Shown here piece by piece: positions 45,391-63,654 of a stretch of DNA of 64,000 nucleotides. Made by a program: the position numbers and the translations under genes. How positions within the stretch are numbered: position 1 is the stretch's first letter; each line of letters starts with the position of its first letter. The notes below the pieces were generated by a model. That model had not been told where the DNA came from. It saw nothing but the letters and a program-made list of their open reading frames with translations, and did no database searches. Source of the DNA: Candidatus Limnocylindria bacterium (GTDB lineage: Bacteria > Chloroflexota > Limnocylindria > QHBO01); assembly GCA_046262115.1 (NCBI GenBank), contig JBHENJ010000037.1, forward strand, positions 22,993-86,992, written 5' to 3'.

Positions 45391-45398
45391 CCGGCGCC

Positions 45399-50069: not shown

Positions 50070-50429
50070 ATGGATCTGACCGGGCTGCTCTACGTCATCG
50101 GTTTCGCGGTGGCCACGACGATCTTCGTGGGCGCCACGATCGCGTTCGCGTGGCTCATCTCGCATCGGCGGCAGCGACCGCAGAAGGGGCTGCCGTACGA
50201 GTCGGGGATCGATACCATCGGCGACACCTGGTCGCGCTTCGGCCTCGCGTTCTACCTCTACGCGCTGCTGTTCGTGGCCTTCGACGTCGAGATCATCTTC
50301 GTGTACCTGTGGGCGACCGTGATCCGGGCGATCTCGATCGAGGGGATCGTGCTCATGGGGATCTTCCTCACGATCCTGATGTTCGGTGAGCTGTACGCAT
50401 GGAAGAAGGGTGACCTTCGATGGCACTAG
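50070..50429 (+). CDS. nuoA: NADH-quinone oxidoreductase subunit A
   Basis: 3-TM NuoA signature. Confidence 0.9.
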
Positions 50430-51082
50430 ATCAGACCGATACGACCCTCACCGGGTCGTCGACGAATGGCGGGAACGGCGGCGGGCCGCTGGTCATCCGT
50501 GACGAGGCCGGCGAGGATCCGGCGCTCCGCGAGTTCGGCATGGAGGACCACCCCCGGGGCGGCTTCCACGGCCTGCTCGAGGTCATCCCCACCAAGGCCG
50601 ATTACGTCCTCGACCTCATCCGCGCGAACTCGCTATGGCCGCTGCTGTCGGGGTTGAGCTGCTGCGCGATCGAGATGATGAGCACGGCGACGGCGGTCAA
50701 CGACATCGACCGATTCGGGATGTTCCCGTTCCGCGCCAGCCCGCGGCAGGCGGACGTGCTGATCGTCGCCGGGACCCTGACGACCAAGATGGCCGGGCCG
50801 CTGGTCCGGCTGTGGGAGCAGATGCCCGAGCCCAAGTGGTGCGTCGCGATGGGAACCTGCACGACGTCGGGCGGTCGCTTCAAGCGGAGCTACAGCGTCG
50901 TGCAGGGCGTGGATCGGCTGATGCCGGTGGACGTCTACGTGCCCGGCTGCCCGCCACGCCCTGAGGGGCTGATCTACGGGATGATGAAGCTCCAGGAGCT
51001 GATCAAGCAGCGCCGCGGCCAGTGGCGCGAGTACGTCGATCGCGGCCCGCAGCGCCAGTCCTGGGAGGGAGACGTCCGATAG
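50420..51082 (+). CDS. nuoB: NADH-quinone oxidoreductase subunit B (N2 cluster)
   Basis: [23 protein letters not shown] cluster-ligand motifs. Confidence 0.9.
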
Positions 51083-51726
51083 CCACCGCCGCTCCGCCGA
51101 GCTCGGGGAGGCTCATCCGGCTCCTCCGCGACCGCTTCGAGATCGACCCGGACCAGGTCTGGGCCGATGGAGGCATCGACGGCGGGCAGGTCGAGATCGA
51201 GATCGGCACTGACCGCATCCACGCCGTGCTGCAGGCGCTGCGCGACGAGGAGGCGTTCGACTTCTACTTCCTCGCCGACCTCGCCGCGGTCGACTACGGG
51301 CCGGGCAATTGGTTCGAGGTGGTCTACCACCTCCACTCGGACCGCCATCCGGCATGGCTGCGCATCCGCACCCGCGTCGACCGGGAGGAGCCGCACGTCC
51401 CGAGCGTCACCGACCTGTGGAAGGGCGCGATGTTCCACGAGCGCGAGGCCTACGACATGATGGGCATCGTCTTCGACGGCAACCGCGACCTGCGGCGGAT
51501 CTTCATGTCGCCGGACTACCGCAGCTTCCCGCAGCGACGCGACTTCCTACTGCCCGATGACGCCGCCGACTCGTCGGCGGCGGGGATCAACCCGCTCGAG
51601 CGTCCCGAAACGTGGGACCTGGGCGCCTTCGCCACCGCGGTCGATCCGGCGGGCACGTGGCCGGCCGCCGACGCGGCATCGGTCGAGGACTCGACCACGC
51701 TGGCCGACGAGAGCCGGCCACGCTGA
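51022..51726 (+). CDS. nuoC: NADH-quinone oxidoreductase subunit C (30 kDa)
   Basis: NuoC core ([26 protein letters not shown]); only in-frame start is GTG 51022 (61-nt overlap with nuoB); CTG at 51061 alternative. Confidence 0.8.
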
Positions 51727-51730
51727 CGCC

Positions 51731-53056
51731 ATGACCGAGTCTACGACGCGACCCGCGACGCCGCCCGAGGAGACCTCGGACGCTCGGCAGGACCAGGCCC
51801 GCGACGAGGACCTGCGGCTCCGCCGCGCGGCAGGCCTCGAGCCGGCGGCGGAGAGCGCGGCGGCGGTCAGGCGGCGGCCCGCGTTCGAGTCGGCGGGCTT
51901 CGAGCAGATCGGGCTTCCGGATCGGCCGCCGCAGACGGAACGCGAGCGCGACTTCTTCACCCTCGGAGAGGGCGAGATGCTGCTCAACATGGGCCCGCAG
52001 CACCCGTCTACGCACGGGGTGATGCGGCTCCTCGCCAAGATCCGCGGCGAGGTCGTGACCGACATGGACCCGGTGCTGGGCTACCTGCACCGCGGGATCG
52101 AGAAGATCTGCGAGAACGCGACCTATACCACCGTCCTGACCTACGTCGACCCGATGGACTACCTGTCGGCGATGCACAACGAGCACGCGCCGGCGATCGC
52201 GTTCGAGAAGCTCTACGGGGTCAAGTGCCCGCCGCGCGCCGAATACATCCGCGCGCTGGTGGTCGAGCTGAACCGCTGCTTCAGCCACGGCCTGATGATC
52301 GGCTTCCTGGGGCTCGACATGGGCGGGCTCACGCCGATTCTGTACAGCTTCATCAACCGCGACGAGATCGTCGACATGCTGTCCGCGATCTCCGGGCAGC
52401 GCATGCTCTTCAACTTCTTCCGCGTCGGCGGGGTGAACTTCGACACCAACGACGAGTTCCTCTCCCGCCTGGGCCGCTGGATGAGCCACGCGCTCAGCAC
52501 GGTGGAGTACAACGAGCGCCTACTCACACAGAACGAGATCTTCACCGCCCGCACGCGTGGGATGGGCGTGCTGACCGGCAGGGAGGCCATCGCGCTGGGC
52601 GTCAGCGGGCCGAACCTGCGCGCCAGCGGCGTGCCGTTCGACGTCCGCAAGGCGCACCCGTACTCGATCTACCCGGAGCTCGAGTTCGACGTCATCACCC
52701 ACGAGAACGGCGACGTCTACGCCCGCTACCTCCAGCGCATCGCCGAGATCAAGCAGAGCATCCACCTGATCGACCAGATCATGGACAAGATGCCGCACGG
52801 TCCCGTGCAGGCGCAGGTGCCGGGCATCATCCGGCCGCGGCCCGGCCGGGCATACGCGGCCATCGAGAGCCCGCGCGGGCTGTACAGCGTCTACGTCATC
52901 AGCGACGGCGGCCCCAACCCGTATCGGTTCCGCATGCGCGACCCGAGCTACATCAGCCTCCAGGCCATCCCGCACCTCATGCCCGGGCACCTGCTCGCCG
53001 ACACCATGGCGATCATGGCGAGCTTCGACCCGGTCATGGGTGGCGTCGACAAGTAG
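51731..53056 (+). CDS. nuoD: NADH-quinone oxidoreductase subunit D (49 kDa), with ~60-aa N-terminal extension
   Basis: GPQHPSTHG, no [NiFe] Cys motifs; ATG 4 nt after nuoC stop. Confidence 0.9.
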   Translation: MTESTTRPATPPEETSDARQDQARDEDLRLRRAAGLEPAAESAAAVRRRPAFESAGFEQIGLPDRPPQTERERDFFTLGEGEMLLNMGPQHPSTHGVMRLLAKIRGEVVTDMDPVLGYLHRGIEKICENATYTTVLTYVDPMDYLSAMHNEHAPAIAFEKLYGVKCPPRAEYIRALVVELNRCFSHGLMIGFLGLDMGGLTPILYSFINRDEIVDMLSAISGQRMLFNFFRVGGVNFDTNDEFLSRLGRWMSHALSTVEYNERLLTQNEIFTARTRGMGVLTGREAIALGVSGPNLRASGVPFDVRKAHPYSIYPELEFDVITHENGDVYARYLQRIAEIKQSIHLIDQIMDKMPHGPVQAQVPGIIRPRPGRAYAAIESPRGLYSVYVISDGGPNPYRFRMRDPSYISLQAIPHLMPGHLLADTMAIMASFDPVMGGVDK

Positions 53057-53076: not shown

Positions 53077-54096
53077 ATGGACTTCGAGCTCGTCCTGGGG
53101 ATCCTTCGCTTCCTCCTGGCGACCACGCTGCTGCTCCTGCTCACCGTGCCGAGCGCGTTCCTGATCATCTACCTCGAGCTGAAGGTGATCGCGCTCATGC
53201 AGCTGCGCATCGGTCCCAACCGGGTCGGCCCGTATGGGATCTTCCAGGCTGCGATCCACGGCTTCAAGGTGCTCGGCAAGGAGGACGTCAGTCCGGACCA
53301 GGCCGACAAGCCGATGTTCACCATCGCCCCGTGGATGGTGTTCATGGCCTCGGCGATGAGCATGCTCGTCATCCCGTTCGCGCCCGGGCTGATCGCCGCG
53401 GACTTCAACATCGGCGTCATCTACTTCTTCGCCGTCATCGGCCTCTCGGTGGTCGGGCTGCTGGTCGCCGGCTGGGCGAGCTACAACAAGTACTCGCTCC
53501 TCGGCGGGCTGCGCAGCGCGGCGCAGATGGTGAGTTACGAGATCCCGCTGACGCTCTCCGTGGTCGGCGTGGTGATCCTCGCGGGAACCCTGTCGTTCAG
53601 CGACATCATCGAGTGGCAGCGGCTGCACGGCTGGGCGGTGCTGTGGCAGCTGCTGGGCTTCCCGATCTTCTATATCGCATCGACGGCCGAGATCAATCGG
53701 GCGCCGTTCGACCTGGTGGAGGCCGATTCGGAGATCGTCGCCGGCTTCGCCACCGAGTACTCCGGCATGCGCTTCGGCTTCTTCTTCTTCGCCGAGTACG
53801 TGAGCCTGTTCATCATGAGCGCGATCGTGGTGGCGCTCTTCTTCGGCGGCTGGCTGGCGCCGTGGCCGTTCCCCGCCGAGCTCGACCCGGAATGGGGCAT
53901 CCTGCGCTCGATCTACGGGCTGCTGTGGTTCTTCGGCAAGACCTACTTCTTCGTCTTCGTCTCGATCTGGCTGCGCGCCACGCTGCCGCGAGTGCGGGTC
54001 GACCAGCTGATGGGGCTGGCGTGGAAGGTGCTCCTGCCGCTGGCGCTGGTGAACCTGTTCGTGACCGCGATCGTCGTCGCGGTCTTCGAGCTCTAA
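53077..54096 (+). CDS. nuoH: NADH-quinone oxidoreductase subunit H
   Basis: 8-TM NuoH/ND1 signature. Confidence 0.9.
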   Translation: MDFELVLGILRFLLATTLLLLLTVPSAFLIIYLELKVIALMQLRIGPNRVGPYGIFQAAIHGFKVLGKEDVSPDQADKPMFTIAPWMVFMASAMSMLVIPFAPGLIAADFNIGVIYFFAVIGLSVVGLLVAGWASYNKYSLLGGLRSAAQMVSYEIPLTLSVVGVVILAGTLSFSDIIEWQRLHGWAVLWQLLGFPIFYIASTAEINRAPFDLVEADSEIVAGFATEYSGMRFGFFFFAEYVSLFIMSAIVVALFFGGWLAPWPFPAELDPEWGILRSIYGLLWFFGKTYFFVFVSIWLRATLPRVRVDQLMGLAWKVLLPLALVNLFVTAIVVAVFEL

Positions 54097-54117: not shown

Positions 54118-54957
54118 ATGGCTGTGGTCGGCGTCGGGATCCTCAAGGGCATGGCGACGACGCTGCGCAACCTGTTCGCGGCCAAGGTCACGCGCCAGTA
54201 CCCCGAGGTCCGGCCGGAGATCCCCGACCGATGGCGTGGCCGCCTCGACCTGATCTACGACGCCTTCGGCGAGCACAAGTGCGAGGTCTGCTTCCAGTGC
54301 GCGCAGGTCTGCCCGGTCGAGGCGATCGACATGAGCGGCTTCGACCAGGAGGGGAACCGGATCCGCTACGGCGTCCCGGAGATCTACGACGAGCGCAAGG
54401 ACCCCAACGCCTACCGCCGGGCGGGCCTGCCGGCGCGGCCGATGCGCAACCCGGCCCGCTGGGACGAGGGAATCGACACGCCGTTCGTGACCGAGGTCGT
54501 CGCGCGCTATCACGCGCGTCCCGAGGCACTGGTGGCGATCTTCAACGCCGTGCAAGCGCGGTTCGGGTACCTCCCCGAGCGGGCGCTGCGCATCATCAGC
54601 GACCGCATGACGATCCACTGGGCGCAGGTCTTCGGCGCCGCCGGGCTCGGCGGGTTCCGCCTGCTCCCCGCCGAGGGCCACGTCATCACCGTGTGCGACT
54701 GCGCCGCGTGCCGCTTCGCGGGCGGCGATCGCCTGCTGGCGGCGCTGCGCGAGCAGCTGGGCGTGGCGCCGGGCGAGACCACCGCCGACGGCCGCTTCAC
54801 GCTCGAGGTCGACTCGGATGTCGCTGCCGGCACCATCGCGCCGGCGATCCGCGTCGACACCCTGGTCTACGGGCCCGTGACGCCGGACCAGGCGCTGCAC
54901 ATCCTGAACGAGCGCCGTCGGACCGCGGACGAGCGCACCGCAACGCCCGTCAGCTGA
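54118..54957 (+). CDS. NuoI-like (single 4Fe-4S motif) fused to NuoE-like thioredoxin-fold domain
   Basis: AAGGAG RBS; N-half matches NuoI but only one CxxCxxCxxxCP (CEVCFQCAQVCP); C-half matches NuoE but has only CDCAAC (second Cys pair absent). Confidence 0.7.
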   Translation: MAVVGVGILKGMATTLRNLFAAKVTRQYPEVRPEIPDRWRGRLDLIYDAFGEHKCEVCFQCAQVCPVEAIDMSGFDQEGNRIRYGVPEIYDERKDPNAYRRAGLPARPMRNPARWDEGIDTPFVTEVVARYHARPEALVAIFNAVQARFGYLPERALRIISDRMTIHWAQVFGAAGLGGFRLLPAEGHVITVCDCAACRFAGGDRLLAALREQLGVAPGETTADGRFTLEVDSDVAAGTIAPAIRVDTLVYGPVTPDQALHILNERRRTADERTATPVS

Positions 54958-54959
54958 CC

Positions 54960-56357
54960 GTGGCGACCAACCTCTCGCCCGGCATCACCAGCGTGCCGGG
55001 CGGCGAGCCGCGGCTGCTGACCGACATCGGTCGGGTGGACCCGGACACCATCGGCAGCTATCTCGAGCTCGGCGGATACGCCGGACTGCGGCGCGCGATC
55101 GAGCAACTATCGCCCGAGCAGGTCATCACGGAGGTGGAGGCCGCTGGCCTGCGTGGCCGCGGCGGAGCCGGCTATCCCGCGGCGGCCAAGTGGCGCGTCG
55201 CGCGCGGCGAGGAGGCGGCCCGCAAGATCGTCGTCGCCAACGTGATGGGCGCCGATCCCGCCGCGCTGGGCGACCGGGCGCTCGCCGAGGGCAACCCTCA
55301 CCTGATCCTCGAGGGGCTGCTGATCGCGGCGTTCGCTGTCGGCGCCGGCGAGGCGATCATCGCGGTGCGCCGCGACTGGACGCTCGCCATCGAGCGGCTG
55401 CGCCGCGCCATCGCTGAGGCCGATGAGGCCCATCTCGGCGGACCGCTGATTCTCGGCACCGACGTCAGCGTCGCGGTCAGCGTCTGGGAGGGATCGGGCG
55501 CCTACGTCGCCGGCGAGGAGACCGCACTGATGCACGCCCTCCAGGGCGACCGAGGCATGCCCATGATCCGGCCGCCCTACCCCGCCGAGCGCGGCCTGTG
55601 GGGCGTGCCGACCGTCATCCAGGGCGCCGAGACGCTGGCGCACGTGGCGTGGATCCTCCTGCACTCCGAGGAGGCGTTCCGCTCGGTGGGCAGCGAGGCG
55701 TCGCACGGCACGAAGCTCGTCACGCTCCAGGGCCGCGTCCGGAACCCCGGCCTGATGGAGATCGCGATGGGCACGCCGCTGCTCGCAGTCCTCGAGGCAG
55801 CGGGCGGCGGGAGCGGCGTCACCAAGGCGCTCTTCGTGGGCGGGCCCGGCGGCGGGGCGATCGCCGACGAGGGGCTCAACACGCCGTTCGACTACGAGCC
55901 ACTTGCCGCGGCGGGCGCCGTCGTCGGCTCGGGCTCGATCCTCGTGACCGACACCGACACCTGCATGGTCGACACGGCACGCTTCTTCCTGAACTTCTCG
56001 TCGCGTGAGGCCTGCGGCAAGGCGGTCCCGTGTCGCATCGGCACCAAGCGTCTCGTCGAGGCGCTGGACCGCGTGCTGGCTGCGCGCCCGCGGCCAGACG
56101 ACTTCACGCTCCTCCGAGCCCTCTCACGCAAGGTGGCCGATACGGCCCTCTGCCAGCTCGAGGCGCTCGCGCCTCAGCCGATGCTCACCACGCTCGCTCT
56201 CTTCCCGGAGGAGTACCGCGCGCACGCCGAGCGCGGCGAGTGCCTTGCCGGCGCATGCGACGTGAGCGGCGTGACGCCGCTCCTCCAGCCGCTTACCGAC
56301 CTCGACCCCACCCCGCAGCTCGCGACCGAGGCCGATACCGCGCCGCCCGCGAACTGA
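54960..56357 (+). CDS. NuoF-like (51 kDa) subunit, divergent
   Basis: GLRGRGGAGYP NADH-binding loop, FMN-region AGEETALMHAL...PTV; Fe-S motif reads ACGKAVPC (second Cys replaced by Ala); GTG start at 54960. Confidence 0.75.
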   Translation: MATNLSPGITSVPGGEPRLLTDIGRVDPDTIGSYLELGGYAGLRRAIEQLSPEQVITEVEAAGLRGRGGAGYPAAAKWRVARGEEAARKIVVANVMGADPAALGDRALAEGNPHLILEGLLIAAFAVGAGEAIIAVRRDWTLAIERLRRAIAEADEAHLGGPLILGTDVSVAVSVWEGSGAYVAGEETALMHALQGDRGMPMIRPPYPAERGLWGVPTVIQGAETLAHVAWILLHSEEAFRSVGSEASHGTKLVTLQGRVRNPGLMEIAMGTPLLAVLEAAGGGSGVTKALFVGGPGGGAIADEGLNTPFDYEPLAAAGAVVGSGSILVTDTDTCMVDTARFFLNFSSREACGKAVPCRIGTKRLVEALDRVLAARPRPDDFTLLRALSRKVADTALCQLEALAPQPMLTTLALFPEEYRAHAERGECLAGACDVSGVTPLLQPLTDLDPTPQLATEADTAPPAN

Positions 56358-56710
56358 CCGCAACGGCGCCACCGCGCCGACTCGTACTGAGCCGCGATAC
56401 GGCATGACTCCATCCAGCCGGCGGCATAACGGCACCCGCGTGTCGCTGCATCCGGTTGAGATATGGAGCGTATGCCAGTTAGTAACGTCGGCGACCGCCG
56501 GGGGCGCTCGGATATGCCAGGCATCCATGTTCTCGCGCCGCGATCGCGCGAGGCATGTCAGTAATAAGGCACGACTGCATATCTGCGCCCCGATCCCGGC
56601 TGGGAGCGTTGGATTAGGCGCCCGGTGCATACACCGCCGCCAGGCGGGCAAAACGGACCCTTGGCGCGCGATGAACGGCTCGCCGAAAGTGCCGGTACCA
56701 TAGCGGCGCG

Positions 56711-59167
56711 ATGACGTTCGGCTCGACCAACGGTCACGGCCCCGGCGGCCCCGGCGGCCCCGGCGGACCCGGCGGACCCGGCGGCGACGGAGTGGGCGCG
56801 CGCGAGGGCGACGGCGTCCACGCCACGCGATCGGTCGTCGACGAGTACACGCCCCTGTGGCCGATGGTCCCGGGCACGAAGCCACTTGCCGTCACCCTGA
56901 ACGGCGCGGAGGTGCTCGCCGAGGAAGGGCAGACGATCCTCCAGCTCTGCCGCGTGCAGAACGTGGAGATCCCTACGCTGTGCTACGAGCCCAAGCTCGC
57001 GCCGTACGGCGCGTGCCGCATCTGCGTCGTCGAGGTCGAGGGCGCCGCCGGAACGCCGATCTCCTGCGGCACCCAGGTCGAGGAGGGGATGGTCATCACC
57101 ACCCACTCCGACCGCGTGCTCGAGAACAGGCGCATGGTCCTGGAGCTCATCTTCAGCGACCACGACGCGTACTGCCTGCCGCCGTGCCAGTTCAAGTGCC
57201 CGACCCGCGTCGACATCCCGGGCTACCTGAAGCAGAACACGCTGGGCAACTGGGAAGAGGCAACGCGCATCCTCAAGCGCTCCCTGCCGTTCCCCGCGAT
57301 CCTGGGCCGTGTCTGCCCCGCGCCGTGCGAGACGCACTGCCGGCGCGAGGAGGTGGACACGCCGATCGCGATCCGCGACAGCCACCGGTATTGCGCGGAC
57401 CGCGTGCTCGAGGTCGACGCCCCGGCGCCGATCCCGTGGCCCAAGGAGCCGCCGAGCGGCAAGCGGGTGGCAGTCATCGGCGCCGGACCGGCGGGACTGG
57501 CAAACGCCTACTACCTCCAGCTGCGCGGCCACCAGTGCGACGTCTACGAGGCCGATCCGGAGCAGGGCGGCATGCTGCGCTACGGCATCCCGCAGTACCG
57601 GCTGCCCAAGGGCTGGATGGACCGCGAGCTGAACCACGTCTGGGAGCTGGGCGCGACGTTCCACCCGAACATGCGGCTGGGCCGCGACTTCCACCTCGCC
57701 GATCTGAAGGCCCAGGGCTACGACGCGATCTACGTGAGCATCGGCTGCTACAAGCCCAACGAGCTGGGCATCCCGGGCGAGGACGCCGACGGCGTCATCA
57801 ACGCGCTCGAGAACCTCTACAACTCGACGCGCGGCATCCCGATCCCGCGGCTGCGCGACTCGCGGATCGTGGTCATCGGCGGCGGGTTCACGGCGATCGA
57901 CTGCACGCGGACCAGCATCCGCCAGGGCGCCGCCGAGGTGAACCTCGTCTACCGCCGCGACCTGAAGGACATGCCGGCGCAGGACGAGGTGCACGAGGCG
58001 ATCGAGGAGGGGGCGCGGGTCATCTTCCAGGCCGCGCCGACGCGGATCATCACCGACGAGCGCAATCGCGTCACCGGCATGGAGTTCCAGCGCATGAAGC
58101 TGGGCGAACCCGATGAGAAGGGCCGCCGCCGCCCGACGCCCATGGCGGGCACCGAGTTCGTGATCGAATGCGACGTGGTACTGGGAGCCATCGGTCAGGG
58201 ACCCGAGCTGTCATGGATCGAGAGCGAGCCGGAAGAGATCCGCAACGGCCTCACGGTGAGCCGGCGCAACACCCTCGAGTCCGAGGAGGACACCTTCCGC
58301 ACCGGGGTCGACGGCATCTTCGTCTCGGGCGACGTGCGGACCGGGTCGGCGACCGTGGTCGAGGCCATCGGGGAGGCGCGGCGCGCCTCGTACGCCATGG
58401 ACTACTGGCTGCGCGGCCACGACCTGGACGATCCGCAGGTGCGCCGCATCGTCGCCGAGCCGCAGCCGCAGTTCCTGACCATCGTGCCCTTCACGGACGA
58501 CGTGAAGGAGCCGCGCGCGATCATGGGCAAGCTGGGCGCCGAGGACCGCAAGACGAACTTCGGCGAGTACGAGCACGGCTACACCCACGACCAGGCGATG
58601 GCCGAGGCGGGCCGATGTCTCCAGTGCACCTGCGAGGCCATCGGCCACTGCGACCTCCGCGAGGCGGCGATCGAATACGAGACGACGCTCAACATGGCGA
58701 TCGACGAGCGCTCGATCCAGGACAACCCGTACGTCGGGGTCAACCACGGCTACGGCCGGGACGAGACGCACTCCTTCATCCTGCGCGACTACTCGCGCTG
58801 CATCGACTGCGGCCGATGCGCGCAGGTCTGCAAGGACATCGTGGGCGCCGGCTGTTACGACTTCATCCGCAAGGGCTTCGACTCACTGGTCACGACGGCC
58901 GATGAGGTCTCGCTCAACGAGACCCCGTGCGTCTCATGCGGCCGGTGCGCGGAGACGTGTCCGGTCGGCGCGCTCATGCCGCGGCCGCGGATCCTGGAGA
59001 CGTATCAGCTCGACGTCGCGCGCTGCATCTTCTGCGGCATCTGCGCCGATGCCTGCCCGTACGACGCCCTGCGCTGCGGGCCGGAGTTCGAGTTCAGCGA
59101 GTACCAGCGCGACCTGCCGATGCTCGACATCCTGGAGATGTCCGACCGGGAGCGGCCAACGCGCTGA
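56711..59167 (+). CDS. mosaic redox protein: NuoG-type 2Fe-2S N-terminus + GltD-like NAD(P)H/FAD oxidoreductase + NuoG/NuoI-like 4Fe-4S ferredoxin C-terminus
   Basis: LCYEPKLAPYGACRICVVEV (2Fe-2S); GltD-like Cys clusters, VAVIGAGPAGL and GGGFTAIDC dinucleotide motifs; C-terminal CIDCGRCAQVC, CVSCGRCAETCP, CIFCGICADACP motifs. Confidence 0.75.
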   Translation: MTFGSTNGHGPGGPGGPGGPGGPGGDGVGAREGDGVHATRSVVDEYTPLWPMVPGTKPLAVTLNGAEVLAEEGQTILQLCRVQNVEIPTLCYEPKLAPYGACRICVVEVEGAAGTPISCGTQVEEGMVITTHSDRVLENRRMVLELIFSDHDAYCLPPCQFKCPTRVDIPGYLKQNTLGNWEEATRILKRSLPFPAILGRVCPAPCETHCRREEVDTPIAIRDSHRYCADRVLEVDAPAPIPWPKEPPSGKRVAVIGAGPAGLANAYYLQLRGHQCDVYEADPEQGGMLRYGIPQYRLPKGWMDRELNHVWELGATFHPNMRLGRDFHLADLKAQGYDAIYVSIGCYKPNELGIPGEDADGVINALENLYNSTRGIPIPRLRDSRIVVIGGGFTAIDCTRTSIRQGAAEVNLVYRRDLKDMPAQDEVHEAIEEGARVIFQAAPTRIITDERNRVTGMEFQRMKLGEPDEKGRRRPTPMAGTEFVIECDVVLGAIGQGPELSWIESEPEEIRNGLTVSRRNTLESEEDTFRTGVDGIFVSGDVRTGSATVVEAIGEARRASYAMDYWLRGHDLDDPQVRRIVAEPQPQFLTIVPFTDDVKEPRAIMGKLGAEDRKTNFGEYEHGYTHDQAMAEAGRCLQCTCEAIGHCDLREAAIEYETTLNMAIDERSIQDNPYVGVNHGYGRDETHSFILRDYSRCIDCGRCAQVCKDIVGAGCYDFIRKGFDSLVTTADEVSLNETPCVSCGRCAETCPVGALMPRPRILETYQLDVARCIFCGICADACPYDALRCGPEFEFSEYQRDLPMLDILEMSDRERPTR

Positions 59168-59211
59168 TCTCCGGACCGAACGGCCTTGGCGGATCGGCGG
59201 CTCTCGTCCGC

Positions 59212-59240
59212 GACACCGGATTCGCGGCGCGAATCGGGTG
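59212..59240 (+). terminator. GC-rich hairpin after the 818-aa gene (candidate terminator)
   Basis: ccggattcgcg-gc-gcgaatcggg near-perfect inverted repeat; no clear U-tract. Confidence 0.3.
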
Positions 59241-59264
59241 GTGAAGTGCACGTCCTGCGGCCGA

Positions 59265-59484
59265 GGCGTATTCGTCCGGTGAATGTATCGGTCAATCCTC
59301 GGGCCTCAATCGTCCTTTGGTTGGCCGTCGACGCTCACCGTAGTCGCCTGACGCATGGCGTGATCACGAATGGCCCGTCCGATCCGGCATCGAAGGACGT
59401 CGTTGTCCGATAGATCCGTCGGGCGAATACCGACCCCCTGCGGCGCGTCGACCGTTGCACCGCATTCGTCGGCCGAATCCGATG
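59265..59484 (+). repeat. ~220-bp noncoding repeat element, copy A
   Basis: ~75-80% identical to 61391..61609 in direct orientation with conserved blocks GGTGAATGTATCGG, GAATGGmCCGTCCGA, TTGTCCGATAsATCCGTCGGGCGAATAC, CCGAATCCG; 5' block and internal block are mutually complementary (long-range stem). Confidence 0.55.
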
Positions 59485-59530
59485 GGCGGCGGCGGCCGTG
59501 GATGTGCGACTTGCGACGGTAACGTGGCTC

Positions 59531-60505
59531 GTGAAAGCGATCGTTCGGTCGGAGTACGGGACGCCTGACATCCTCCGGCTCGAGGAGATCCCAACCCCCG
59601 AGCCCGGTGACGGTGAGGTGCTGGTCAGAATCCGGGCGTCATCGGTCAACCGAACGGATCTGGAGTCACTCGCGGGCAGACCGCTGGTGTATCGGGCGTT
59701 CATGGGGCTGCGCAGGCCTCGCAACGGACGGCTTGGGCTGGACGCCGCGGGCGAAGTCGAGGCGGTCGGGCCGGGCGTGGAGCGCTTCAAGCCGGGCGAC
59801 AAGGTGTTCGCGGATCTGCTCTACCACGGGATGTGCGCCTTCGCGGAGTACGCCTGCGCGCGGGAGAAGGCGTGGCGCCCGATCCCTGACGGCGTCGACT
59901 TCGAGACGGCGGCGACGCTGCCGGCGTCGGCGGTGCTCGCGCTCCAGGGACTCGGCGGCCGCGACGGCGTCCGCGCGGGCGAGCGGGTTCTCATCATCGG
60001 CGCCTCCGGGTCGGTCGGGATCTTCGCGGTGCAACTTGCGAAGGCAGCCGGGGCGCACGTGACCGGCGTGTCGAGCGCCGGGAAGTTCGATCTCGTCCGC
60101 TCCATCGGTGCCGACGACGTCATCGACTACGCCCGCGAGAACTACACGCGCGGCGACCGACGCTACGACCGCATCCTCGATGCCGTCGCGATGCACTCCG
60201 TTTTCTCGGTGCGCCGCGCCCTGACCGCTGGCGGCGTCTACGGCGCCCACGGCGGTCGGTCGAGCGGCGGCCTCCTCCAGGCGATGGCGCTCGGGCCTTT
60301 GCTCTCCGTGGGGCGCAAGCGGCGGATCGGGGTCGTGATGGGCAGACCGAACGACGCCGCGGACCTCGCGACCGTGGGCGAGATGGTGCGGGCGGGCACG
60401 CTGGTCCCGCTGATCGATCGCACCTTCACGCTCGCTGGGGTGCCCGAGGCGTTGCGCATCTATGCAGCGGGTGAGGCGCGCGGCAAGCTCGTGATCAGGA
60501 TCTGA
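59531..60505 (+). CDS. zinc-type alcohol dehydrogenase/quinone oxidoreductase (MDR family)
   Basis: MKAIVRSEYG start (GTG), GxGxxG (GASGSVGIFAVQLAK); listed start 59498 extends into repeat A. Confidence 0.8.
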   Translation: MKAIVRSEYGTPDILRLEEIPTPEPGDGEVLVRIRASSVNRTDLESLAGRPLVYRAFMGLRRPRNGRLGLDAAGEVEAVGPGVERFKPGDKVFADLLYHGMCAFAEYACAREKAWRPIPDGVDFETAATLPASAVLALQGLGGRDGVRAGERVLIIGASGSVGIFAVQLAKAAGAHVTGVSSAGKFDLVRSIGADDVIDYARENYTRGDRRYDRILDAVAMHSVFSVRRALTAGGVYGAHGGRSSGGLLQAMALGPLLSVGRKRRIGVVMGRPNDAADLATVGEMVRAGTLVPLIDRTFTLAGVPEALRIYAAGEARGKLVIRI

Positions 60506-60532
60506 CGGGCGCCAAAGTCCAAGGAGGCCGAT

Positions 60533-60946
60533 GTGGAGATCCGACCGAAGCCGCCGTCCAGGAAGGGCGGCTCCGACATGTTCATCGGCGACGTCTGGAT
60601 CGACCAGATCACCGGGGGCGAGGGCGGCTCGCGCATCCGGGTCAACGTCGTGCGCTTCGCACCCGGCGCGCGCAACGCCTGGCACGCGCACGCGCTCGGT
60701 CAGACGCTACACGTGACCGAGGGCCTCGGGCGGACCCAGGCGCGCGGCGGCGACGTCATCGAGATCCGGCCCGGCGACACGATCTATACCGCGCCGCGCG
60801 AGTGGCACTGGCACGGGGCTGGGCCCGACCACTTCATGACCCACGTCGCGATCTGGGAGGCGCCCGCGGAAGGGCCCGAGACCGAGTTCGCCGAGCAGGT
60901 TACGGACGCCGAGTACGACGCCGAGGGTGCGGATCGCGGCCGGTAA
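60533..60946 (+). CDS. cupin-domain protein
   Basis: AAGGAGG RBS; cupin motifs (NAWHAHALGQTLHVTEG, GDTIYTAPREWHWHGA). Confidence 0.7.
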   Translation: MEIRPKPPSRKGGSDMFIGDVWIDQITGGEGGSRIRVNVVRFAPGARNAWHAHALGQTLHVTEGLGRTQARGGDVIEIRPGDTIYTAPREWHWHGAGPDHFMTHVAIWEAPAEGPETEFAEQVTDAEYDAEGADRGR

Positions 60947-60966
60947 CCGACCGTGTACGGCCTCGG

Positions 60967-61332
60967 CTACATCGCTTCCGTCATCGGGCTCATGAGCTGG
61001 AAGTAGTTGCCGTCGGGATCGCTGAACGTGGCGATCAGGAACTCCGGCGGACCACCGGGGTTGTAGGGCTCGCGGACGACGGTCGCGCCGGCGGCGACGA
61101 ATCGGTCGAAATCGGCCTTGACGTCCTCGCTCTCGATGTTCCAGATCAGGCGGCCCGGCTGCGGATTCTTGCCGGTGACCTCATCGTGCGCGCCGATGCT
61201 GATGAAGCCGTTGCCGAGCTGCCACCCGGTGTACGCGCTGTCCTCGAAGCCCGGCTTGCCGAGGACCCTTGTGTAGAACTCCGTCAGGGCCTTTGGGTTC
61301 TCGGAGCCGATCAGGATGCTGTTGAAGTTCAC
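60967..61332 (-). CDS. VOC/glyoxalase-family protein
   Basis: AAAGGAGGAG RBS 5 nt before GTG (MNFNSILIG...); listed longer N-terminus rejected. Confidence 0.75.
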   Translation of the reverse strand: MNFNSILIGSENPKALTEFYTRVLGKPGFEDSAYTGWQLGNGFISIGAHDEVTGKNPQPGRLIWNIESEDVKADFDRFVAAGATVVREPYNPGGPPEFLIATFSDPDGNYFQLMSPMTEAM

Positions 61333-61390
61333 GCTCTCCTCCTTTGACGCTAGTCGGCGATGGATGACCGATCCGTATCGATCGGCGTCG

Positions 61391-61609
61391 GCGCGTTCGT
61401 GCGGTGAATGTATCGGCCATTCTTCGGTCGCGATCGGTACGTAGATCGCCGCCCGACGCGCACCGCAGTCGCTCGGTGCATGCCTTGACGCTGAATGGAC
61501 CGTCCGAGCCACACGGCGACGATCTACTTGTCCGATACATCCGTCGGGCGAATACGGATCGGCGACCGAGCTTTGACCGTTTCACCGTATTCACCAGCCG
61601 AATCCGGTG
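61391..61609 (+). repeat. ~220-bp noncoding repeat element, copy B
   Basis: Direct repeat of 59265..59484; here the 5' GAATGTATCGG and downstream CCGATACATCC are perfectly complementary. Confidence 0.55.
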
Positions 61610-61645
61610 CTAGCGAGGTCCGCCTGGCGACCTGGATCCGCGTCG

Positions 61646-62157
61646 TCACGACGTTGGCGGCACCTCGATGACGCGGCCATTCGCGACGCCGAAGTCCCAG
61701 ACATCGATGTCGGGCGGCTCAACGCCGAGCGCCGTGAGCGCAGTGCAGATCTGGCTCCGATGATCGCTGCCGTGATGCAGCGCCTGCGCGAGCCGGATGC
61801 CGATCGGCGCGTCTCTCTGATACCCGTCGTCCTCGTCGACCTCGCGCACGACGGCGTCGGGATCGAGGCCCTCTGCCAGGAACCGCGACCAAGCGGCGCC
61901 GTTGCGCTCCATGACGCCCCGGAGCTCGGCAAGGCCCATGCGCTCGTCGTCGATGGCGTGGGTCCGATCGCCAGTCAGATAGAACAGGTACCCGGCGTCG
62001 CCGCCGATGAAGTGGCGCTGCGTGTCGAGGATCGAGCCGTAGGTCCCGGGCACGACGCTGTCGAGCTGCTCCGGCTCAGCTCGACGCACGCATCGATCAA
62101 ACGCAGCGTCGCCCACACGTGGTGGGCGAACGCGTCTGCCATCAGGGATCTGCTCAT
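61646..62157 (-). pseudogene. DinB_2-family protein with apparent -1 frameshift
   Basis: N-terminus (MADAFAHHVWATLRLIDACVELS) in one frame, remainder (AEPEQLDSVVPG...HHGSDHRSQI...) in another; switch around 62075-62085. Confidence 0.5.
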
Positions 62158-62167
62158 CTCGTCCGCG

Positions 62168-62908
62168 ACTATAGCGACGAGCGAAGACGCGTCCGCGGCA
62201 GCCGATCAGCCCTTCTCGAGCACCTCCCGAGCTCCAGCAGCCGATCGCGCCAGTAGGCCTTCATCCGGTCGGCCGTCGACTCATCGGGAAGCCACTCGTG
62301 CCCGATCGTGACCACCGTCTTCGCGTCGCCCTTGGCGGTGAAGTAGACGACGACGATCGATGTCGGGTCGTCCCAGTCGAAGCGGACCGATGTTGCCGAT
62401 TTCGTCGGCCGCTGTCGCAGTGAGACGCCCGCGAGCCAGAGGCCCGCTGCGCCGCATCGGTGAAGGCGGCGAACGCACGGTCCGCCGACGCGTTGATCGT
62501 GCGGTTGACCGTGATCGTGAACCCGGTCGCCATCTGTCCCTTGGCGCGGAGGCCCCGTGCTCGCTCATAGCCGACGGTGACGCTTTGCGCCCACCAGCCG
62601 TCGACGCCGTGCTCCTCGCGCAGCCAGTGCGCGATCTCCGGGTGGCGACGTTCCGTGCCACCCCACTCGTCGAGGAGGCCGAACCAATCGGTCCAGCCCC
62701 TGCCGGTCGCGCTGCGGATGGCTTCATCGGTCGTCGGCATCTCGACGGCGGACTCGGCCGGCGCAACGGCCGGCGCCGATGTCTCTCCCGACGCTCCGGC
62801 GCCTGCATCGGCTCGGCGGATCAGCTGGGCCCGAGCCGCGGTGTACGACTCGCCGGTCTTCTCGGAGCGCGCGCGGACGCGGCGCTTGAAGGTCTTCTGC
62901 GTGGGCAT
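62168..62908 (-). pseudogene. DUF4287-like N-domain + SRPBCC/AHSA1-like C-domain protein with apparent frameshift
   Basis: Frame 1 reads MPTQKTFKRRV...TITVNRTINASADRAFAAFTDAAQ then low-complexity; SRPBCC-like continuation (SVRFDWDDPTSIVVVYFTAKGDAKTVVTIGHEWLPDEST...) is in another frame; 3' end uncertain. Confidence 0.4.
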
Positions 62909-63099
62909 GATTCGCTTCCTTCCCGCGACGGCGCTCCGGACTCACGCTCCCTTGCTCCGTCGAGAGAGGGCGAAACACGTCCCGGGGAAGCGAGTTCCCC
63001 TTTTCCCGCGAGGCCGATGGCGTGAGCACCGGATTCGGGGTTCGGCTGGGAGACGCCGTTGCGCGAGAGTCTAGCGCGCAGTCACAGTCGAATGGAAGA

Positions 63100-63627
63100 C
63101 CGATGCTCGACGTCACCATCCGCCCCGAACGCCCGGGCGAGGCCGATGCGGTCCGCGCCGTCAACGACGCTGCCTTCGGCGAGCCCGTCGAGGGCCGCAT
63201 CGTCGACGACATCCGTGGCACGGACCGATGGATCGACGGCGGGTCGCTCGTCGCGGAGGACGCCAGTGGCCGCATCGTGGGCCACCTCCTGCTCAGCGAA
63301 GGCGACCTCGAGACCGATTCCGGCGCGGCGCGCCGGATCTGGATGCTCGGCCCGGTGGCGGTGCTCCCCGCGGTGCAGCGGCGGGGCGTCGGCGCGGCGC
63401 TGATGCGCGCGGCGATCGAGCTCGCGACTTCACGCGGACAGCCGCTGATCTGTCTGCTCGGCCACGCCAGCTACTACCCACGGTTCGGCTTCGAGCCGGC
63501 GCGAGAAATCGGCATCCAACCGCCGCGACCGTGGCGCGACGCGAACTGGATGGCGCTGCGCCTCCCCGCCTGGACGCCGGATCTCCGCGGCGCCGCCCGC
63601 TACCCCTCCGCGTTCCCCGACGACTGA
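63100..63627 (+). CDS. GNAT family N-acetyltransferase
   Basis: Acetyl-CoA motif (VQRRGVGAALMRAAIE); start at MLDVTIRPE. Confidence 0.75.
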   Translation, partial: PMLDVTIRPERPGEADAVRAVNDAAFGEPVEGRIVDDIRGTDRWIDGGSLVAEDASGRIVGHLLLSEGDLETDSGAARRIWMLGPVAVLPAVQRRGVGAALMRAAIELATSRGQPLICLLGHASYYPRFGFEPAREIGIQPPRPWRDANWMALRLPAWTPDLRGAARYPSAFPDD

Positions 63628-63654
63628 CCCTGGGCCACCCGACGCTCGGCACAA

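What the first reader, a model, noticed from the sequence alone, without database searches (positions are those of the whole stretch)
56711..59167. 818-aa mosaic protein with a NuoG-type 2Fe-2S N-terminus, a GltD-like NAD(P)H flavoprotein, and a NuoG/NuoI-type poly-ferredoxin C-terminus
The N-terminus (LCYEPKLAPYGACRICVVEV) is the N1b-type 2Fe-2S motif of NuoG and Fe-hydrogenases. The middle resembles the glutamate-synthase small-subunit / PreT family. That region has Cys-rich cluster motifs, VAVIGAGPAGL and GGGFTAIDC dinucleotide folds, and GMLRYGIPQYRLPK. The C-terminus has CIDCGRCAQVC and then a complete NuoI-like 2x[4Fe-4S] pair (CVSCGRCAETCP ... CIFCGICADACP). This pair includes the second NuoI motif that is missing from the upstream NuoI-like gene. 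The molybdopterin-like bulk of NuoG is absent. I do not recognise this architecture as a described complex-I subunit. It suggests NADPH (via FAD) as an alternative electron entry into the Q-module.
Basis: partly seen in the sequence, partly recalled or inferred. Interest (0 to 1): 0.8.

Follow-up and report, generated by a model that had tools for sequence, protein, structure and literature searches.

The report
Complex I with a built-in NADPH module
This gene encodes the subunit that takes the place of NuoG in an undescribed form of respiratory complex I, whose electron-input part derives from an NADPH-using transhydrogenase (NfnABC/Stn) inserted into the nuoI gene, so these common soil bacteria probably feed NADPH directly into a proton-pumping respiratory enzyme.

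Summary
It is not a chimera. More than 240 full-length homologues exist, and at least 196 species-representative genomes hold a relative.

Over about 720 residues it is a homologue of NfnA/StnC, the NADPH-binding subunit of the Nfn-Bfu (Stn) transhydrogenase (PDB 9bov_A, E 4e-172; model TM 0.81). It lacks the formate-dehydrogenase-like domain and ends instead in the C-terminal half of NuoI. The N-terminal half of NuoI is fused to the NuoE-like gene two genes upstream. Rejoined in silico, the halves match solved NuoI chains in one stretch (E 4e-33).

In relatives the operon reads nuoA-B-C-D-H-[NuoI'::E]-F-[this gene]-J-K-L-M-N, with no separate nuoG or nuoI. It occurs in Limnocylindria (Chloroflexota), where the window sits, and in Thermoleophilia. 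In Thermoleophilia the NuoF-like subunit keeps the full bifurcating-type Fe-S domains. The window's version is a reduced form.

Most likely function: NADPH is oxidised at FAD, electrons pass through the Fe-S chain to the split NuoI and NuoB, then to quinone, with an NADH/FMN site probably kept. I found no description of this in the literature. The function is inferred, not shown.

The parts
56711..59167 (+). Subunit 'T': an NfnA/StnC-like protein (2Fe-2S, GltD-type FAD/NADPH domain, five predicted 4Fe-4S clusters) fused to the C-terminal half of NuoI. It occupies the NuoG position.
56879..57109 (+). aa 57-133: [2Fe-2S] domain of NuoG-N1b / HydA / NfnA-A1 type (C91, C102, C105, C119).
   Evidence: Pfam Fer2_4. 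All four Cys are conserved in the family and in NfnA-like proteins.
57161..57412 (+). aa 151-234: junction motif HxxxCxxxCxxxCP followed by the Fer4_20 region. Eight ligands for the two GltD-type 4Fe-4S clusters: H151, C155, C159, C163, C202, C206, C210, H225. H225 replaces the Lys ligand of StnC/NfnA.
57464..58378 (+). aa 252-556: FAD and NADPH Rossmann folds (VAVIGAGPAGL; GIPQYRLPK; VVIGGGFTAIDC; LVYRRDLKDMPA).
   Evidence: Pfam Pyr_redox_2. Y-R-R and the glycine motifs are at least 90% conserved with NADPH-using NfnA/StnC homologues.
58616..58651 (+). aa 636-647: CxxCxCx5C motif (one further 4Fe-4S). It marks the return from the GltD insert into the NuoG-like fold.
58769..58975 (+). aa 687-755: HydA/NuoG/NfnA-type two-cluster ferredoxin domain (CIDCGRCAQVC ... 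CVSCGRCAETCP).
58979..59164 (+). aa 757-818: C-terminal half of NuoI (RILETYQLDVARCIFCGICADACPYDALRCGPEFEFSEYQRDL...). It carries the second Cys motif of the N6a/N6b pair.
   Evidence: TIGR01971 profile positions 71-112, 51 bits. Rejoined profile against solved NuoI chains, E 4e-33. pLDDT below 50 when modelled alone.
54118..54957 (+). NuoI(N-half)::NuoE-like fusion, 279 aa. The NuoI part is aa 1-~78 (54118-54351) with CEVCFQCAQVCP. The NuoE/NfnC-like thioredoxin fold is aa ~117-267, with a non-canonical ligand set (CxCxxC ... D ... G).
54960..56357 (+). NuoF-like FMN subunit, GTG start. It is closest to NfnB/StnB/HydB but lacks their N-terminal 2Fe-2S and C-terminal 2x4Fe-4S domains. The second Cys of the N3/B1 motif is lost (CGKAVPCR).
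50070..50429 (+). nuoA
50420..51082 (+). nuoB. N2 ligands are present (SCCAIEM, GTC, GCPP).
51022..51726 (+). nuoC
51731..53056 (+). nuoD. The quinone-site motifs GPQHPSTHG and GYLHRG are present.
53077..54096 (+). nuoH, directly after nuoD as in 11-subunit-type operons.

Best explanation
The gene encodes the subunit that stands where NuoG stands in a variant respiratory complex I. The electron-input module of this complex was not inherited as NuoEFG. It derives from an Nfn-Bfu (Stn-type) NADPH transhydrogenase operon (NuoE-like, NuoF-like, NfnA-like) that sits inside nuoI. The insertion left NuoI split in two. Its N-terminal half, with the first Cys motif, is fused to the front of the NuoE-like protein. 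Its C-terminal half, with the second Cys motif, is fused to the end of this protein, where it replaces the formate-dehydrogenase-like domain of NfnA.

Shown by sequence:
- the homologies
- the complementary NuoI halves
- the conserved gene order in two phyla
- the conservation of every Fe-S ligand and of the FAD/NADPH motifs

Inferred:
- The two NuoI halves assemble in trans into the usual two-cluster (N6a/N6b) domain. This bolts the module onto NuoB/D/H.
- NADPH reduces the FAD. Electrons then pass through the two GltD-type clusters and the NuoG-like clusters. The branch that is a dead end in soluble NfnA/StnC carries them on to N6a/N6b, then to N2 in NuoB, then to quinone, driving proton pumping.
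- The [2Fe-2S] cluster links to the NuoF-like FMN subunit. That subunit probably still handles NAD(H), giving a second entry or a built-in NADPH/NADH exchange.
- In the window's lineage (Limnocylindria) the parts specific to bifurcation have been lost, so electron bifurcation to ferredoxin is unlikely there.
For: Homology:
- T aa 60-782 matches Csac NfnA 9bov_A residues 5-699 (E 4e-172), StnC 8oh5_C (1e-143) and T. sibiricus NfnA 9n5u_A.
- The AF2 model has pLDDT 86 and superposes on these structures with TM 0.79-0.83.
- The NuoF-like subunit scores 408 bits against NfnB and 273 against true NuoF.
- The NuoE-like part hits NfnC/HydC best.

Split NuoI:
- The halves cover TIGR01971 profile positions 1-78 (55.7 bits) and 71-112 (51.1 bits).
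- Concatenated, they give one stretch over positions 1-112 at 104 bits.
- A profile of rejoined halves from 10 genomes matches NuoI/TYKY chains in a single stretch. Only 3 residues are missing at the joint (E 4e-33).
- Four Cys motifs add up to four clusters only if the two orphan motifs pair.

Context:
- The order A-B-C-D-H-IE-F-T-J-K-L-M-N, with no separate nuoG or nuoI, holds in L001, L002, L083-L088 and in the GTDB loci that extend far enough.
- NuoB, NuoD and NuoH pass NCBIfam cutoffs and keep the N2 and quinone-site residues.

Cofactor sites:
- All Fe-S ligands are 100% conserved in about 240 family members.
- The Y-R-R and GxGxxG/A NADPH/FAD motifs are conserved.

Pathway logic:
- In NfnA/StnC the A2-A4-A5 (C1/C2) branch is described as a non-functional remnant.
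- In complex I the equivalent clusters lead to NuoI (established knowledge of Nqo3/Nqo9).

Selection:
- dN/dS is 0.16-0.31 for all subunits, including F and IE.
Against: - No biochemical or structural data exist for any member. NADPH use, quinone reduction and trans-assembly of NuoI are all inferred.
- The single-sequence AF2 model of the rejoined NuoI was uninformative (pLDDT 42).
- The low confidence of the tail in the T model could simply reflect a shallow alignment there.
- In the window itself nuoJKLMN do not follow the gene. Completeness of the complex in this organism is therefore not shown.
- The NuoF-like and NuoE-like subunits have altered cluster ligands and an altered NADE motif. 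Their activity is uncertain in either direction.
- About 10 of 120 Thermoleophilia homologues have lost the NADPH motif. The GltD domain is therefore not indispensable as an NADPH site in every lineage.
- I could not check whether these genomes also carry a canonical nuoEFG/nuoI set elsewhere.
Confidence: 0.65

Rival explanations
1. NADH remains the respiratory donor through the NuoF-like FMN subunit. On this view the GltD-type FAD/NADPH site of T does not feed quinone in vivo. It serves instead as a built-in, non-bifurcating NADPH/NAD+ transhydrogenase, as a redox sensor, or as a structural relic.
For: The NuoF-like subunit keeps GLRGRGGAG, GEETAL and three of the four N3 Cys, and is under purifying selection (dN/dS 0.31). 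The [2Fe-2S] cluster that connects to it is fully conserved. Some Thermoleophilia members have lost the NADPH motif but keep the rest of T.
Against: The FAD/NADPH motifs and all ligands of the FAD-proximal clusters are conserved in all Limnocylindria members and in about 90% of Thermoleophilia members. T is the slowest-evolving protein of the input module (61% identity between Limnocylindria groups, against 41% for F and 39% for IE). Once both flavins are wired to the same chain, electrons from NADPH can reach quinone thermodynamically.
Confidence: 0.2
2. The complex runs mainly in reverse. Proton-motive force drives electrons from quinol uphill to NADP+, and NAD+, to supply biosynthetic NADPH.
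For: Complex I is reversible (established knowledge). Nfn/Stn enzymes physiologically produce NADPH in many organisms. The module would give direct access to NADP+.
Against: Nothing in the window points to a lithotrophic lifestyle that needs reverse electron flow. The neighbours are housekeeping genes. This cannot be tested with sequence alone.
Confidence: 0.08
3. The E-F-T trio forms a soluble Nfn/Stn-like transhydrogenase that merely lies within a nuo operon and does not attach to complex I.
For: All three proteins are closest to the soluble NfnABC/StnABC subunits.
Against: The two NuoI halves are covalently fused to E and T. The operon has no other nuoI or nuoG, so the complex would lack N6a/N6b. 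The order is conserved in two phyla. The Fdh-like domain that mediates tetramerisation of the soluble enzymes is absent.
Confidence: 0.04
4. The ORF is an assembly chimera or a decaying pseudogene.
For: None found. The window does have an unusual 353-nt insert just upstream and lacks nuoJ-N downstream.
Against: More than 240 full-length homologues come from independent assemblies, including Mb-scale contigs and a record titled 'chromosome: 1' (OY969424.1, locus L053). GC3 is 0.95 and dN/dS is 0.20. The frame is intact.
Confidence: 0.01

Closest known systems
NfnA / StnC, the NADPH-binding subunit of the Nfn-Bfu (Sporomusa-type Nfn, StnABC; formerly NsoC) electron-bifurcating transhydrogenase (PDB 9bov, 8oh5, 9n5u)
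   Same: - The order is the same over about 720 residues: 2Fe-2S, HxxxCxxxCxxxCP, GltD/NfnL-type FAD+NADPH domain, CxxCxCxnC, then the two-cluster ferredoxin domain.
- Identity is about 40%.
- The gene order E-like, F-like, A-like matches stnABC.
   Different: - It lacks the C-terminal formate-dehydrogenase-like domain with its 4Fe-4S cluster. That domain mediates tetramerisation in the soluble enzymes.
- It ends instead in half of NuoI.
- The 'strictly conserved' Lys ligand of the FAD-proximal cluster is His in all ~240 members.
- It is encoded inside a nuo operon.
- In the window's lineage the partner B subunit lacks the Fe-S domains that define Bfu.
NuoG (Nqo3) of canonical complex I
   Same: It holds the same position in the electron path: N1b-type 2Fe-2S, a His-containing motif and an N4-type cluster domain upstream of NuoI.
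   Different: - It has a ~480-residue GltD insert with FAD/NADPH and two extra clusters.
- It has no molybdopterin-like domain.
- TIGR01973 scores 84.5 bits against a cutoff of 470.
- It lies after nuoH and nuoF rather than between nuoF and nuoH in an A-N operon.
NuoI (Nqo9 / TYKY / NDUFS8)
   Same: The last ~60 residues are a typical NuoI C-half (YD(L/I)D..RCIFCGxCxxACP...FE..EY). The head of the upstream gene is a typical NuoI N-half.
   Different: It is split between two polypeptides, each fused to another subunit. No intact nuoI is in the operon.
Predicted 'Nuo-Bfu' complexes (Schut et al. 2022, PMC9304861)
   Same: [quoted passage not shown]
   Different: - Those were reported for Deferribacteres, Proteobacteria, Planctomycetes and Nitrospirae.
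- They have a NuoG-like BfuA and 14 subunits A-N.
- No Nfn-type (GltD-containing) BfuA, no split NuoI and no Actinobacteria are mentioned. The only Chloroflexi it mentions are Dehalococcoides-type Por-Bfu and Mbh-Bfu.
Mbx-like operons in which a GltD-related flavoprotein replaces NuoI (Degli Esposti 2015, PMC4758237)
   Same: A GltD-type NAD(P)H flavoprotein attached to a complex-I-like membrane module, predicted from genomes.
   Different: - Those are Mrp/Mbx-type ferredoxin-oxidising complexes.
- There GltD substitutes for NuoI and NADP+ is the acceptor.
- Here NuoI is retained (split), and the Q-module is a canonical quinone-reducing NuoB/D/H.

Membership tests
NfnA/StnC (Nfn-Bfu BfuA) | N-terminal 2Fe-2S, then a GltD/NfnL-type FAD/NADPH domain inserted into a NuoG/HydA-like Fe-S domain, with junction motifs HxxxCxxxCxxxCP and CxxCxCxnC | tested here: met
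NfnA/StnC (Nfn-Bfu BfuA) | C-terminal formate-dehydrogenase/molybdopterin-like domain with its 4Fe-4S cluster (A5/C1) | tested here: not met
   No molybdopterin Pfam hit. The protein ends at aa 818 with a NuoI tail. Homology to 9bov_A stops at its residue 699 of 1178.
NfnA/StnC (Nfn-Bfu BfuA) | Lys ligand (StnC K170) at the FAD-proximal 4Fe-4S, reported as strictly conserved | tested here: not met
   His225 in 119/119 Limnocylindria-type and 120/120 Thermoleophilia-type sequences. Lys in 60/60 NfnA-like representatives.
Bfu family (electron-bifurcating BfuABC) | BfuB with additional Fe-S domains (N-terminal thioredoxin-like 2Fe-2S/Zn site and C-terminal 2x4Fe-4S) around the FMN core, and BfuC with a canonical 2Fe-2S | tested here: not met
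   The window's F is 465 aa with only Complex1_51K, SLBB and NADH_4Fe-4S. It aligns to NfnB residues 107-525. One B1 Cys is lost. The NuoE-like part has lost canonical Cys3 and Cys4. The feature is met in the Thermoleophilia relatives.
NuoG | Full-length match to the NuoG equivalog, including the molybdopterin-like domain | tested here: not met
   TIGR01973 scores 84.5 bits against a cutoff of 470, over aa 61-155 only.
NuoI | Single polypeptide with an N-terminal helix and two CxxCxxCxxxCP motifs | tested here: not met
   T holds only profile positions 71-112 and IE only 1-78. Together they give 104 bits against a cutoff of 113. The rejoined profile matches NuoI chains at E 4e-33.
Respiratory complex I (quinone-reducing Nuo) | NuoB with N2 ligands, NuoD with quinone-site His/Tyr and without NiFe ligands, NuoH, NuoA, and antiporter-like NuoL/M/N with NuoJ/K | tested here: inconclusive
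   A, B, C, D and H are present and B, D and H pass their cutoffs. J-N are present in relatives but are absent from the window.
GltD (glutamate synthase small subunit) / PreT | Stand-alone ~450-490 aa protein scoring above the family cutoffs, partnered with GltB or PreA | tested here: not met
   TIGR01318 scores 317 against a cutoff of 483, and TIGR01317 scores 220 against 448. No gltB or preA lies nearby.
NADPH-oxidising flavoenzyme (functional claim) | NADPH oxidation and electron delivery to quinone | not testable with these tools
   Only motif conservation is available: Y-R-R and GGGFTA(I/M)D. That the Arg pair binds the 2'-phosphate rests on my own knowledge of GltD/NfnB/DPD structures.

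The most novel reading that the evidence does not exclude
These operons encode a proton-pumping NADPH:quinone oxidoreductase, meaning a complex I that respires NADPH directly. It would have arisen by an independent, second recruitment of an input module onto the 11-subunit core. In Thermoleophilia the same complex keeps a complete bifurcating Nfn-Bfu core. That form would couple NADPH, NAD(H), ferredoxin and quinone in one membrane enzyme of aerobic soil bacteria.
Probability: 0.45. Interest if true: 0.9.

Novelty: new variant of a known kind. Interest (0 to 1): 0.8.

Why it matters
- **A missing enzyme.** Complex I is textbook-specific for NADH. The long-sought 'NADPH dehydrogenase' role of cyanobacterial NDH-1 turned out to be ferredoxin-dependent. 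A complex I with a conserved NADPH/FAD entry would be the first of its kind. It would change how redox balance and energy yield are modelled for two bacterial classes represented here by hundreds of soil and environmental MAGs (Limnocylindria, Thermoleophilia).
- **Modular evolution.** The core A-B-C-D-H-I-J-K-L-M-N acquired an input module a second time, at a different place (inside nuoI). The result is a naturally split NuoI that can be used to test how the peripheral arm assembles.
- **The 'dead-end' branch.** This gives a function to the cluster branch described as a non-functional remnant in soluble NfnA/StnC. A Lys-to-His ligand switch correlates with membrane attachment.
- **A natural series.** The Thermoleophilia and Limnocylindria forms run from a full bifurcating core to a reduced one. 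This is useful for the open question of what makes Bfu enzymes bifurcate.

Tried and rejected
- **AF2 of the rejoined NuoI.** A single-sequence model of an in-silico rejoined NuoI gave pLDDT 42 and was uninformative. I replaced it with profile tests.
- **Window's contig.** I tried to look it up through the 100%-identical IE protein P0271, to see past position 64000 and find nuoJ-N. The contig is not on record.
- **Downstream region.** tblastx of window 59168-64000 against all fetched loci found no similarity. tRNA and Rfam scans of the region were empty.
- **F-T fusions.** I first suspected that F and T are fused in some genomes. This was an artefact of my ORF bookkeeping, since stop codons are present.
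- **Decay of NuoE/NuoF.** I first thought the NuoE-like and NuoF-like subunits were cofactor-less relics. I rejected this as stated, for three reasons:
  - dN/dS is 0.25-0.31.
  - The glycine loop and GEET motif are conserved.
  - An extra conserved Cys (CxCxxC) plus Asp/Glu or Cys could still ligate a 2Fe-2S cluster.
- **A5 motif reading.** MAFFT aligned the C-terminal Cys motif with the A5 (molybdopterin-type) motif of NfnA. I rejected that reading because the flanks are unmistakably NuoI.
- **Literature.** Eight searches and seven papers read found no description of this architecture.
Full report
**1. Observation**

The ORF 56711-59167 (+) encodes 818 aa with an ATG start. Its third-position GC is 0.94-0.95, like the flanking nuo genes in this ~70% GC window.

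Pfam finds the following:
- Fer2_4 at aa 57-133
- Fer4_20 at aa 156-234
- Pyr_redox_2 at aa 252-556
- a weak Fer4_Nqo3 at aa 690-755
- Fer4/Fer4_7 at aa 740-788
- no molybdopterin domain

NCBIfam's best model is PRK12814 ('putative NADPH-dependent glutamate synthase small subunit') over aa 58-710, at 541 bits against a cutoff of 916. NuoG models hit only aa 61-155. NuoI (TIGR01971) hits only aa 760-801, matching profile positions 71-112.

**2. Not a chimera**

The first protein search returned 120 full-length homologues of 794-888 aa. Ten are 85-88% identical and the rest 59-62%. They come from many independent assemblies named Chloroflexota, Limnocylindria or Limnocylindrales.

A scan of species-representative genomes found 196 loci encoding a relative. 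The best 80 are 84-90% identical. Most are titled Limnocylindria, Chloroflexota or 'uncultured Chloroflexia'. Six carry other names (for example Zixiibacteriota and Steroidobacteraceae), which I take to be mis-binned contigs. The set includes Mb-scale contigs and a complete chromosome.

The neighbouring fusion protein is 100% identical to an NCBI protein from a Candidatus Limnocylindria MAG contig of 104,636 bp. This identifies the source of the window.

**3. What the protein is**

Against solved structures the protein (from M51) aligns over query residues 10-732 to three chains:
- residues 5-699 of 9bov_A, NfnA of the Caldicellulosiruptor NfnABC transhydrogenase (E 4e-172)
- 8oh5_C, StnC of Sporomusa ovata (1e-143)
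- 9n5u_A, Thermococcus sibiricus NfnA (8e-139)

Stand-alone NfnB/GltD chains cover only the middle, and NuoG/HydA chains only the first ~100 residues.

An AF2 model built on a 97-sequence alignment has pLDDT 86.4 and pTM 0.82. It superposes on those three chains with query-normalised TM 0.79-0.83, against 0.49 for NfnI-L/GltD.

The two junction motifs that Kremp et al. describe for StnC are both present:
- HxxxCxxxCxxxCP, as H151/C155/C159/C163
- CxxCxCxnC, as C636/C639/C641/C647

All ligands are conserved with 60 NfnA-like representatives:
- four Cys for the 2Fe-2S
- eight ligands for the two GltD-type clusters
- four for the CxxCxC cluster
- eight for the two-cluster ferredoxin domain

The FAD motif, R of GIPQYRL (StnC R239), GGGFTAIDC and LVYRR are conserved too.

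Two differences from NfnA/StnC stand out:
- The ~470-residue formate-dehydrogenase-like domain is missing.
- The Lys that ligates the FAD-proximal cluster (StnC K170, 'strictly conserved') is His in every family member. The count is 119/119 and 120/120 in the two lineages, against Lys in 60/60 NfnA-like proteins.

**4. The tail and the split NuoI**

The last ~60 residues (RILETYQLDVARCIFCGICADACPYDALRCGPEFEFSEYQRDL...) are a NuoI C-terminal half.

Two genes upstream, ORF 54118-54957 begins with a NuoI N-terminal half (…VTRQYPE…RGRL…CEVCFQCAQVCPVEAIDM) and continues as a NuoE-like thioredoxin fold.

Against TIGR01971:
- the head covers profile positions 1-78 (55.7 bits)
- the tail covers positions 71-112 (51.1 bits)
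- the two joined in silico give one stretch over positions 1-112 at 104 bits (cutoff 113)

A profile of rejoined halves from ten genomes of three lineages matches NuoI/TYKY/NDUFS8 chains in one uninterrupted stretch. One example is 9f5x_G residues 85-205, at E 4e-33. Only three residues are missing at the joint.

That leaves exactly two orphan motifs, one on each polypeptide. They can only make the usual N6a/N6b pair together.

In the T model the tail alone has pLDDT below 50. This is consistent with a missing partner, though the alignment is also shallow there. A single-sequence model of the rejoined NuoI was uninformative.

**5. Context**

The window holds:

| Gene | Coordinates |
|---|---|
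| nuoA | 50070-50429 |
| nuoB | 50420-51082 |
| nuoC | 51022-51726 |
| nuoD | 51731-53056 |
| nuoH | 53077-54096 |
| NuoI'::NuoE | 54118-54957 |
| NuoF-like | 54960-56357 |
| T | 56711-59167 |

NuoB, NuoD and NuoH exceed NCBIfam cutoffs. NuoB has the N2 ligands, and NuoD has GPQHPSTHG and GYLHRG.

In relatives the operon continues with nuoJ-K-L-M-N and has no separate nuoG or nuoI. This holds for L001, L002, L083 and L084, and for the GTDB loci that extend far enough.

nuoH follows nuoD directly, as in 11-subunit-type operons. The E-F-T block sits exactly where nuoI should be. The simplest reading is an stnABC-like operon lying inside nuoI, with in-frame fusions at both junctions.

The NuoF-like subunit is closer to NfnB/StnB/HydB (408 bits) than to true NuoF (273 bits). 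The NuoE-like part is closest to NfnC/HydC.

**6. A second lineage and a reduction series**

A representative search showed that nearly all other relatives are 1000-1400 aa NfnA-like proteins. One 816-aa cluster (P0166, 42% identity) also carries a NuoI tail.

Its loci and those of two relatives show the same operon (L085-L088; L087 is from NCBI GCA_040769125.1). There the F subunit is 636-642 aa, with the N-terminal 2Fe-2S and C-terminal 2x4Fe-4S domains of a genuine BfuB. It has CGKCVPCR and NGDEGDPGAF. The NuoE part has all four canonical Cys.

More than 120 homologues of this type exist. The eight that carry an organism name are from Thermoleophilia or Actinobacteria MAGs. They keep His225, every Fe-S Cys and the NuoI motif at 100%. 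They keep the NADPH motif in about 108 of 120 and have lost it in about 10, including P0166.

In the window's lineage:
- F (465 aa) has lost both extra domains.
- The second Cys of the N3/B1 motif is lost (A or T in all members).
- The NADE motif reads NVMG or NGFE.
- The NuoE part has CxCxxC ... D/E (or C) ... G/D instead of Cx4C...Cx3C.

F and IE also diverge fastest. Between Limnocylindria groups they are 41% and 39% identical, against 61% for T and 79% for NuoB. They remain under purifying selection, with dN/dS of 0.31 and 0.25, so they are not relics.

**7. Mechanism**

Shown:
- the homologies
- the ligand and motif conservation
- the complementary NuoI halves
- the gene order

Inferred: NADPH reduces FAD. 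Electrons pass the two GltD-type clusters and the CxxCxC cluster into the two-cluster domain. In soluble NfnA/StnC the side branch from there is called a non-functional remnant. In complex I the homologous NuoG clusters hand electrons to NuoI (established knowledge of Nqo3/Nqo9). Here that branch would feed the reconstituted N6a/N6b, then N2, then quinone.

The 2Fe-2S cluster connects to the NuoF-like FMN subunit. This gives a probable NADH entry or an NADPH/NADH exchange.

Without the ferredoxin-reducing C-terminal domain of BfuB, bifurcation is unlikely in Limnocylindria. It remains possible in Thermoleophilia.

**8. Comparison with the literature**

- Schut et al. (PMC9304861) predict 'Nuo-Bfu' complexes in Deferribacteres, Proteobacteria, Planctomycetes and Nitrospirae, with a NuoG-like BfuA. 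They list Nfn-Bfu only as soluble enzymes of Firmicutes, Euryarchaeota, Synergistetes and Bacteroidetes. They do not mention Actinobacteria, Thermoleophilia or NuoI.
- Kremp et al. list Stn only in Firmicutes, Synergistetes and Euryarchaeota.
- Degli Esposti notes Mbx-like operons where a GltD-like flavoprotein replaces NuoI.
- Spero et al. remark that many Chloroflexi have 13 of 14 nuo genes and lack NuoG.
- Searches on Limnocylindria, Thermoleophilia, NADPH, N-module and fusion terms found nothing describing this architecture.
- Public annotations call T 'FAD-dependent oxidoreductase' or 'formate dehydrogenase major subunit'.

**9. Peculiarities of this window**

- nuoJ-N are not downstream. 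Instead there are a zinc-type alcohol dehydrogenase, a cupin, a glyoxalase, a DUF4287 protein and a GNAT gene, none similar to any relative's flank.
- Three relatives (L029, L049, L052) also lack nuoJ within 3.5-4.6 kb.
- A 353-nt lower-GC insert separates F from T, where relatives have a few to a few tens of bases. It has no Rfam match.
- The N-terminus of T carries an expanded (GGP)n run.

**10. Verdict**

It missed that the whole input module is a domesticated Nfn/Stn transhydrogenase and that NuoI is split. This is a new variant of complex I. It is conserved in two phyla and, as far as I could find, undescribed. Its function is plausible and testable but untested.

Noticed in passing
window 56358-56710: A 353-nt non-coding stretch of visibly lower GC lies between the NuoF-like stop and the T start. 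In relatives the F stop lies only ~100-155 nt upstream of the conserved LAVTLNG motif of T, against 531 nt here, so their gap is a few to a few tens of bases. It has no similarity to any fetched locus and no Rfam match. Its origin and role (promoter? remnant of an insertion?) are unknown.
   Followed up: partly
window 59168-64000: nuoJ-K-L-M-N, which follow T in almost all relatives, are absent. They are replaced by a zinc-type alcohol dehydrogenase (59498-60505), a cupin (60533-60946), a glyoxalase (60967-61512, -), a DUF4287 protein (62261-62908, -) and a GNAT gene (63022-63627). Relatives L029, L049 and L052 also lack nuoJ within 3.5-4.6 kb of T. The operon is therefore broken after T in several genomes.
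   Followed up: partly
window 56735-56790 (T aa 9-26): An in-frame 9-bp repeat encodes GPGGPGGPGGPGGPGG in the N-terminal linker of T. Relatives have short N/G-rich runs (NGNGNG) there. It is a variable low-complexity spacer in front of the conserved YTPLWPMVPGT motif.
   Followed up: no
L085-L088 (Thermoleophilia loci), e.g. L087 7084-8994: The same split-NuoI operon occurs in Thermoleophilia (Actinomycetota) with a full-length BfuB-type F subunit (N-terminal 2Fe-2S, C-terminal 2x4Fe-4S) and a canonical NuoE-like part. This is a possible membrane-bound, quinone-linked Nfn-Bfu. About 10 of 120 members, including P0166, have lost the NADPH motif of T (SPCA/GDGFAA in place of YRR/GGGFTA).
   Followed up: partly
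T aa 225 (window 57383-57385) and homologues: The ligand of the FAD-proximal 4Fe-4S cluster is Lys in all 60 soluble NfnA/StnC-like proteins compared. It is His in all ~240 complex-I-linked members of both phyla. The switch correlates perfectly with membrane attachment and may retune the cluster potential.
   Followed up: partly
window 54694-54711 (IE aa 193-198) and aa 232-238: The NuoE-like domain has a family-specific CxCxxC in place of Cx4C and has lost the canonical second Cys pair. In the window's group that pair is D/E and G. In the 60%-identity group it is C and D/S. Whether a 2Fe-2S cluster is still bound through the extra Cys and an Asp is open.
   Followed up: partly
window 48866-49957: A 363-aa ORF with no Pfam match lies directly upstream of nuoA. 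It is conserved at that position, together with a DinB_2 protein (48301-48873), in nearly all close relatives, but not in the 60%-identity group or in Thermoleophilia. It could be a lineage-specific accessory gene.
   Followed up: no
window 50420-50580 (NuoB aa 1-55): NuoB carries a ~55-residue N-terminal extension with a G/N-rich low-complexity run ([13 protein letters not shown]) before the conserved core.
   Followed up: no
window 44928-47204: A 758-aa protein combines a SpoIIIAA-like AAA ATPase, a phosphotyrosine-phosphatase-like domain and a C-terminal R3H domain. It is followed by thymidylate kinase (47195-47905) and a cyclic-di-AMP receptor protein (47945-48274).
   Followed up: no
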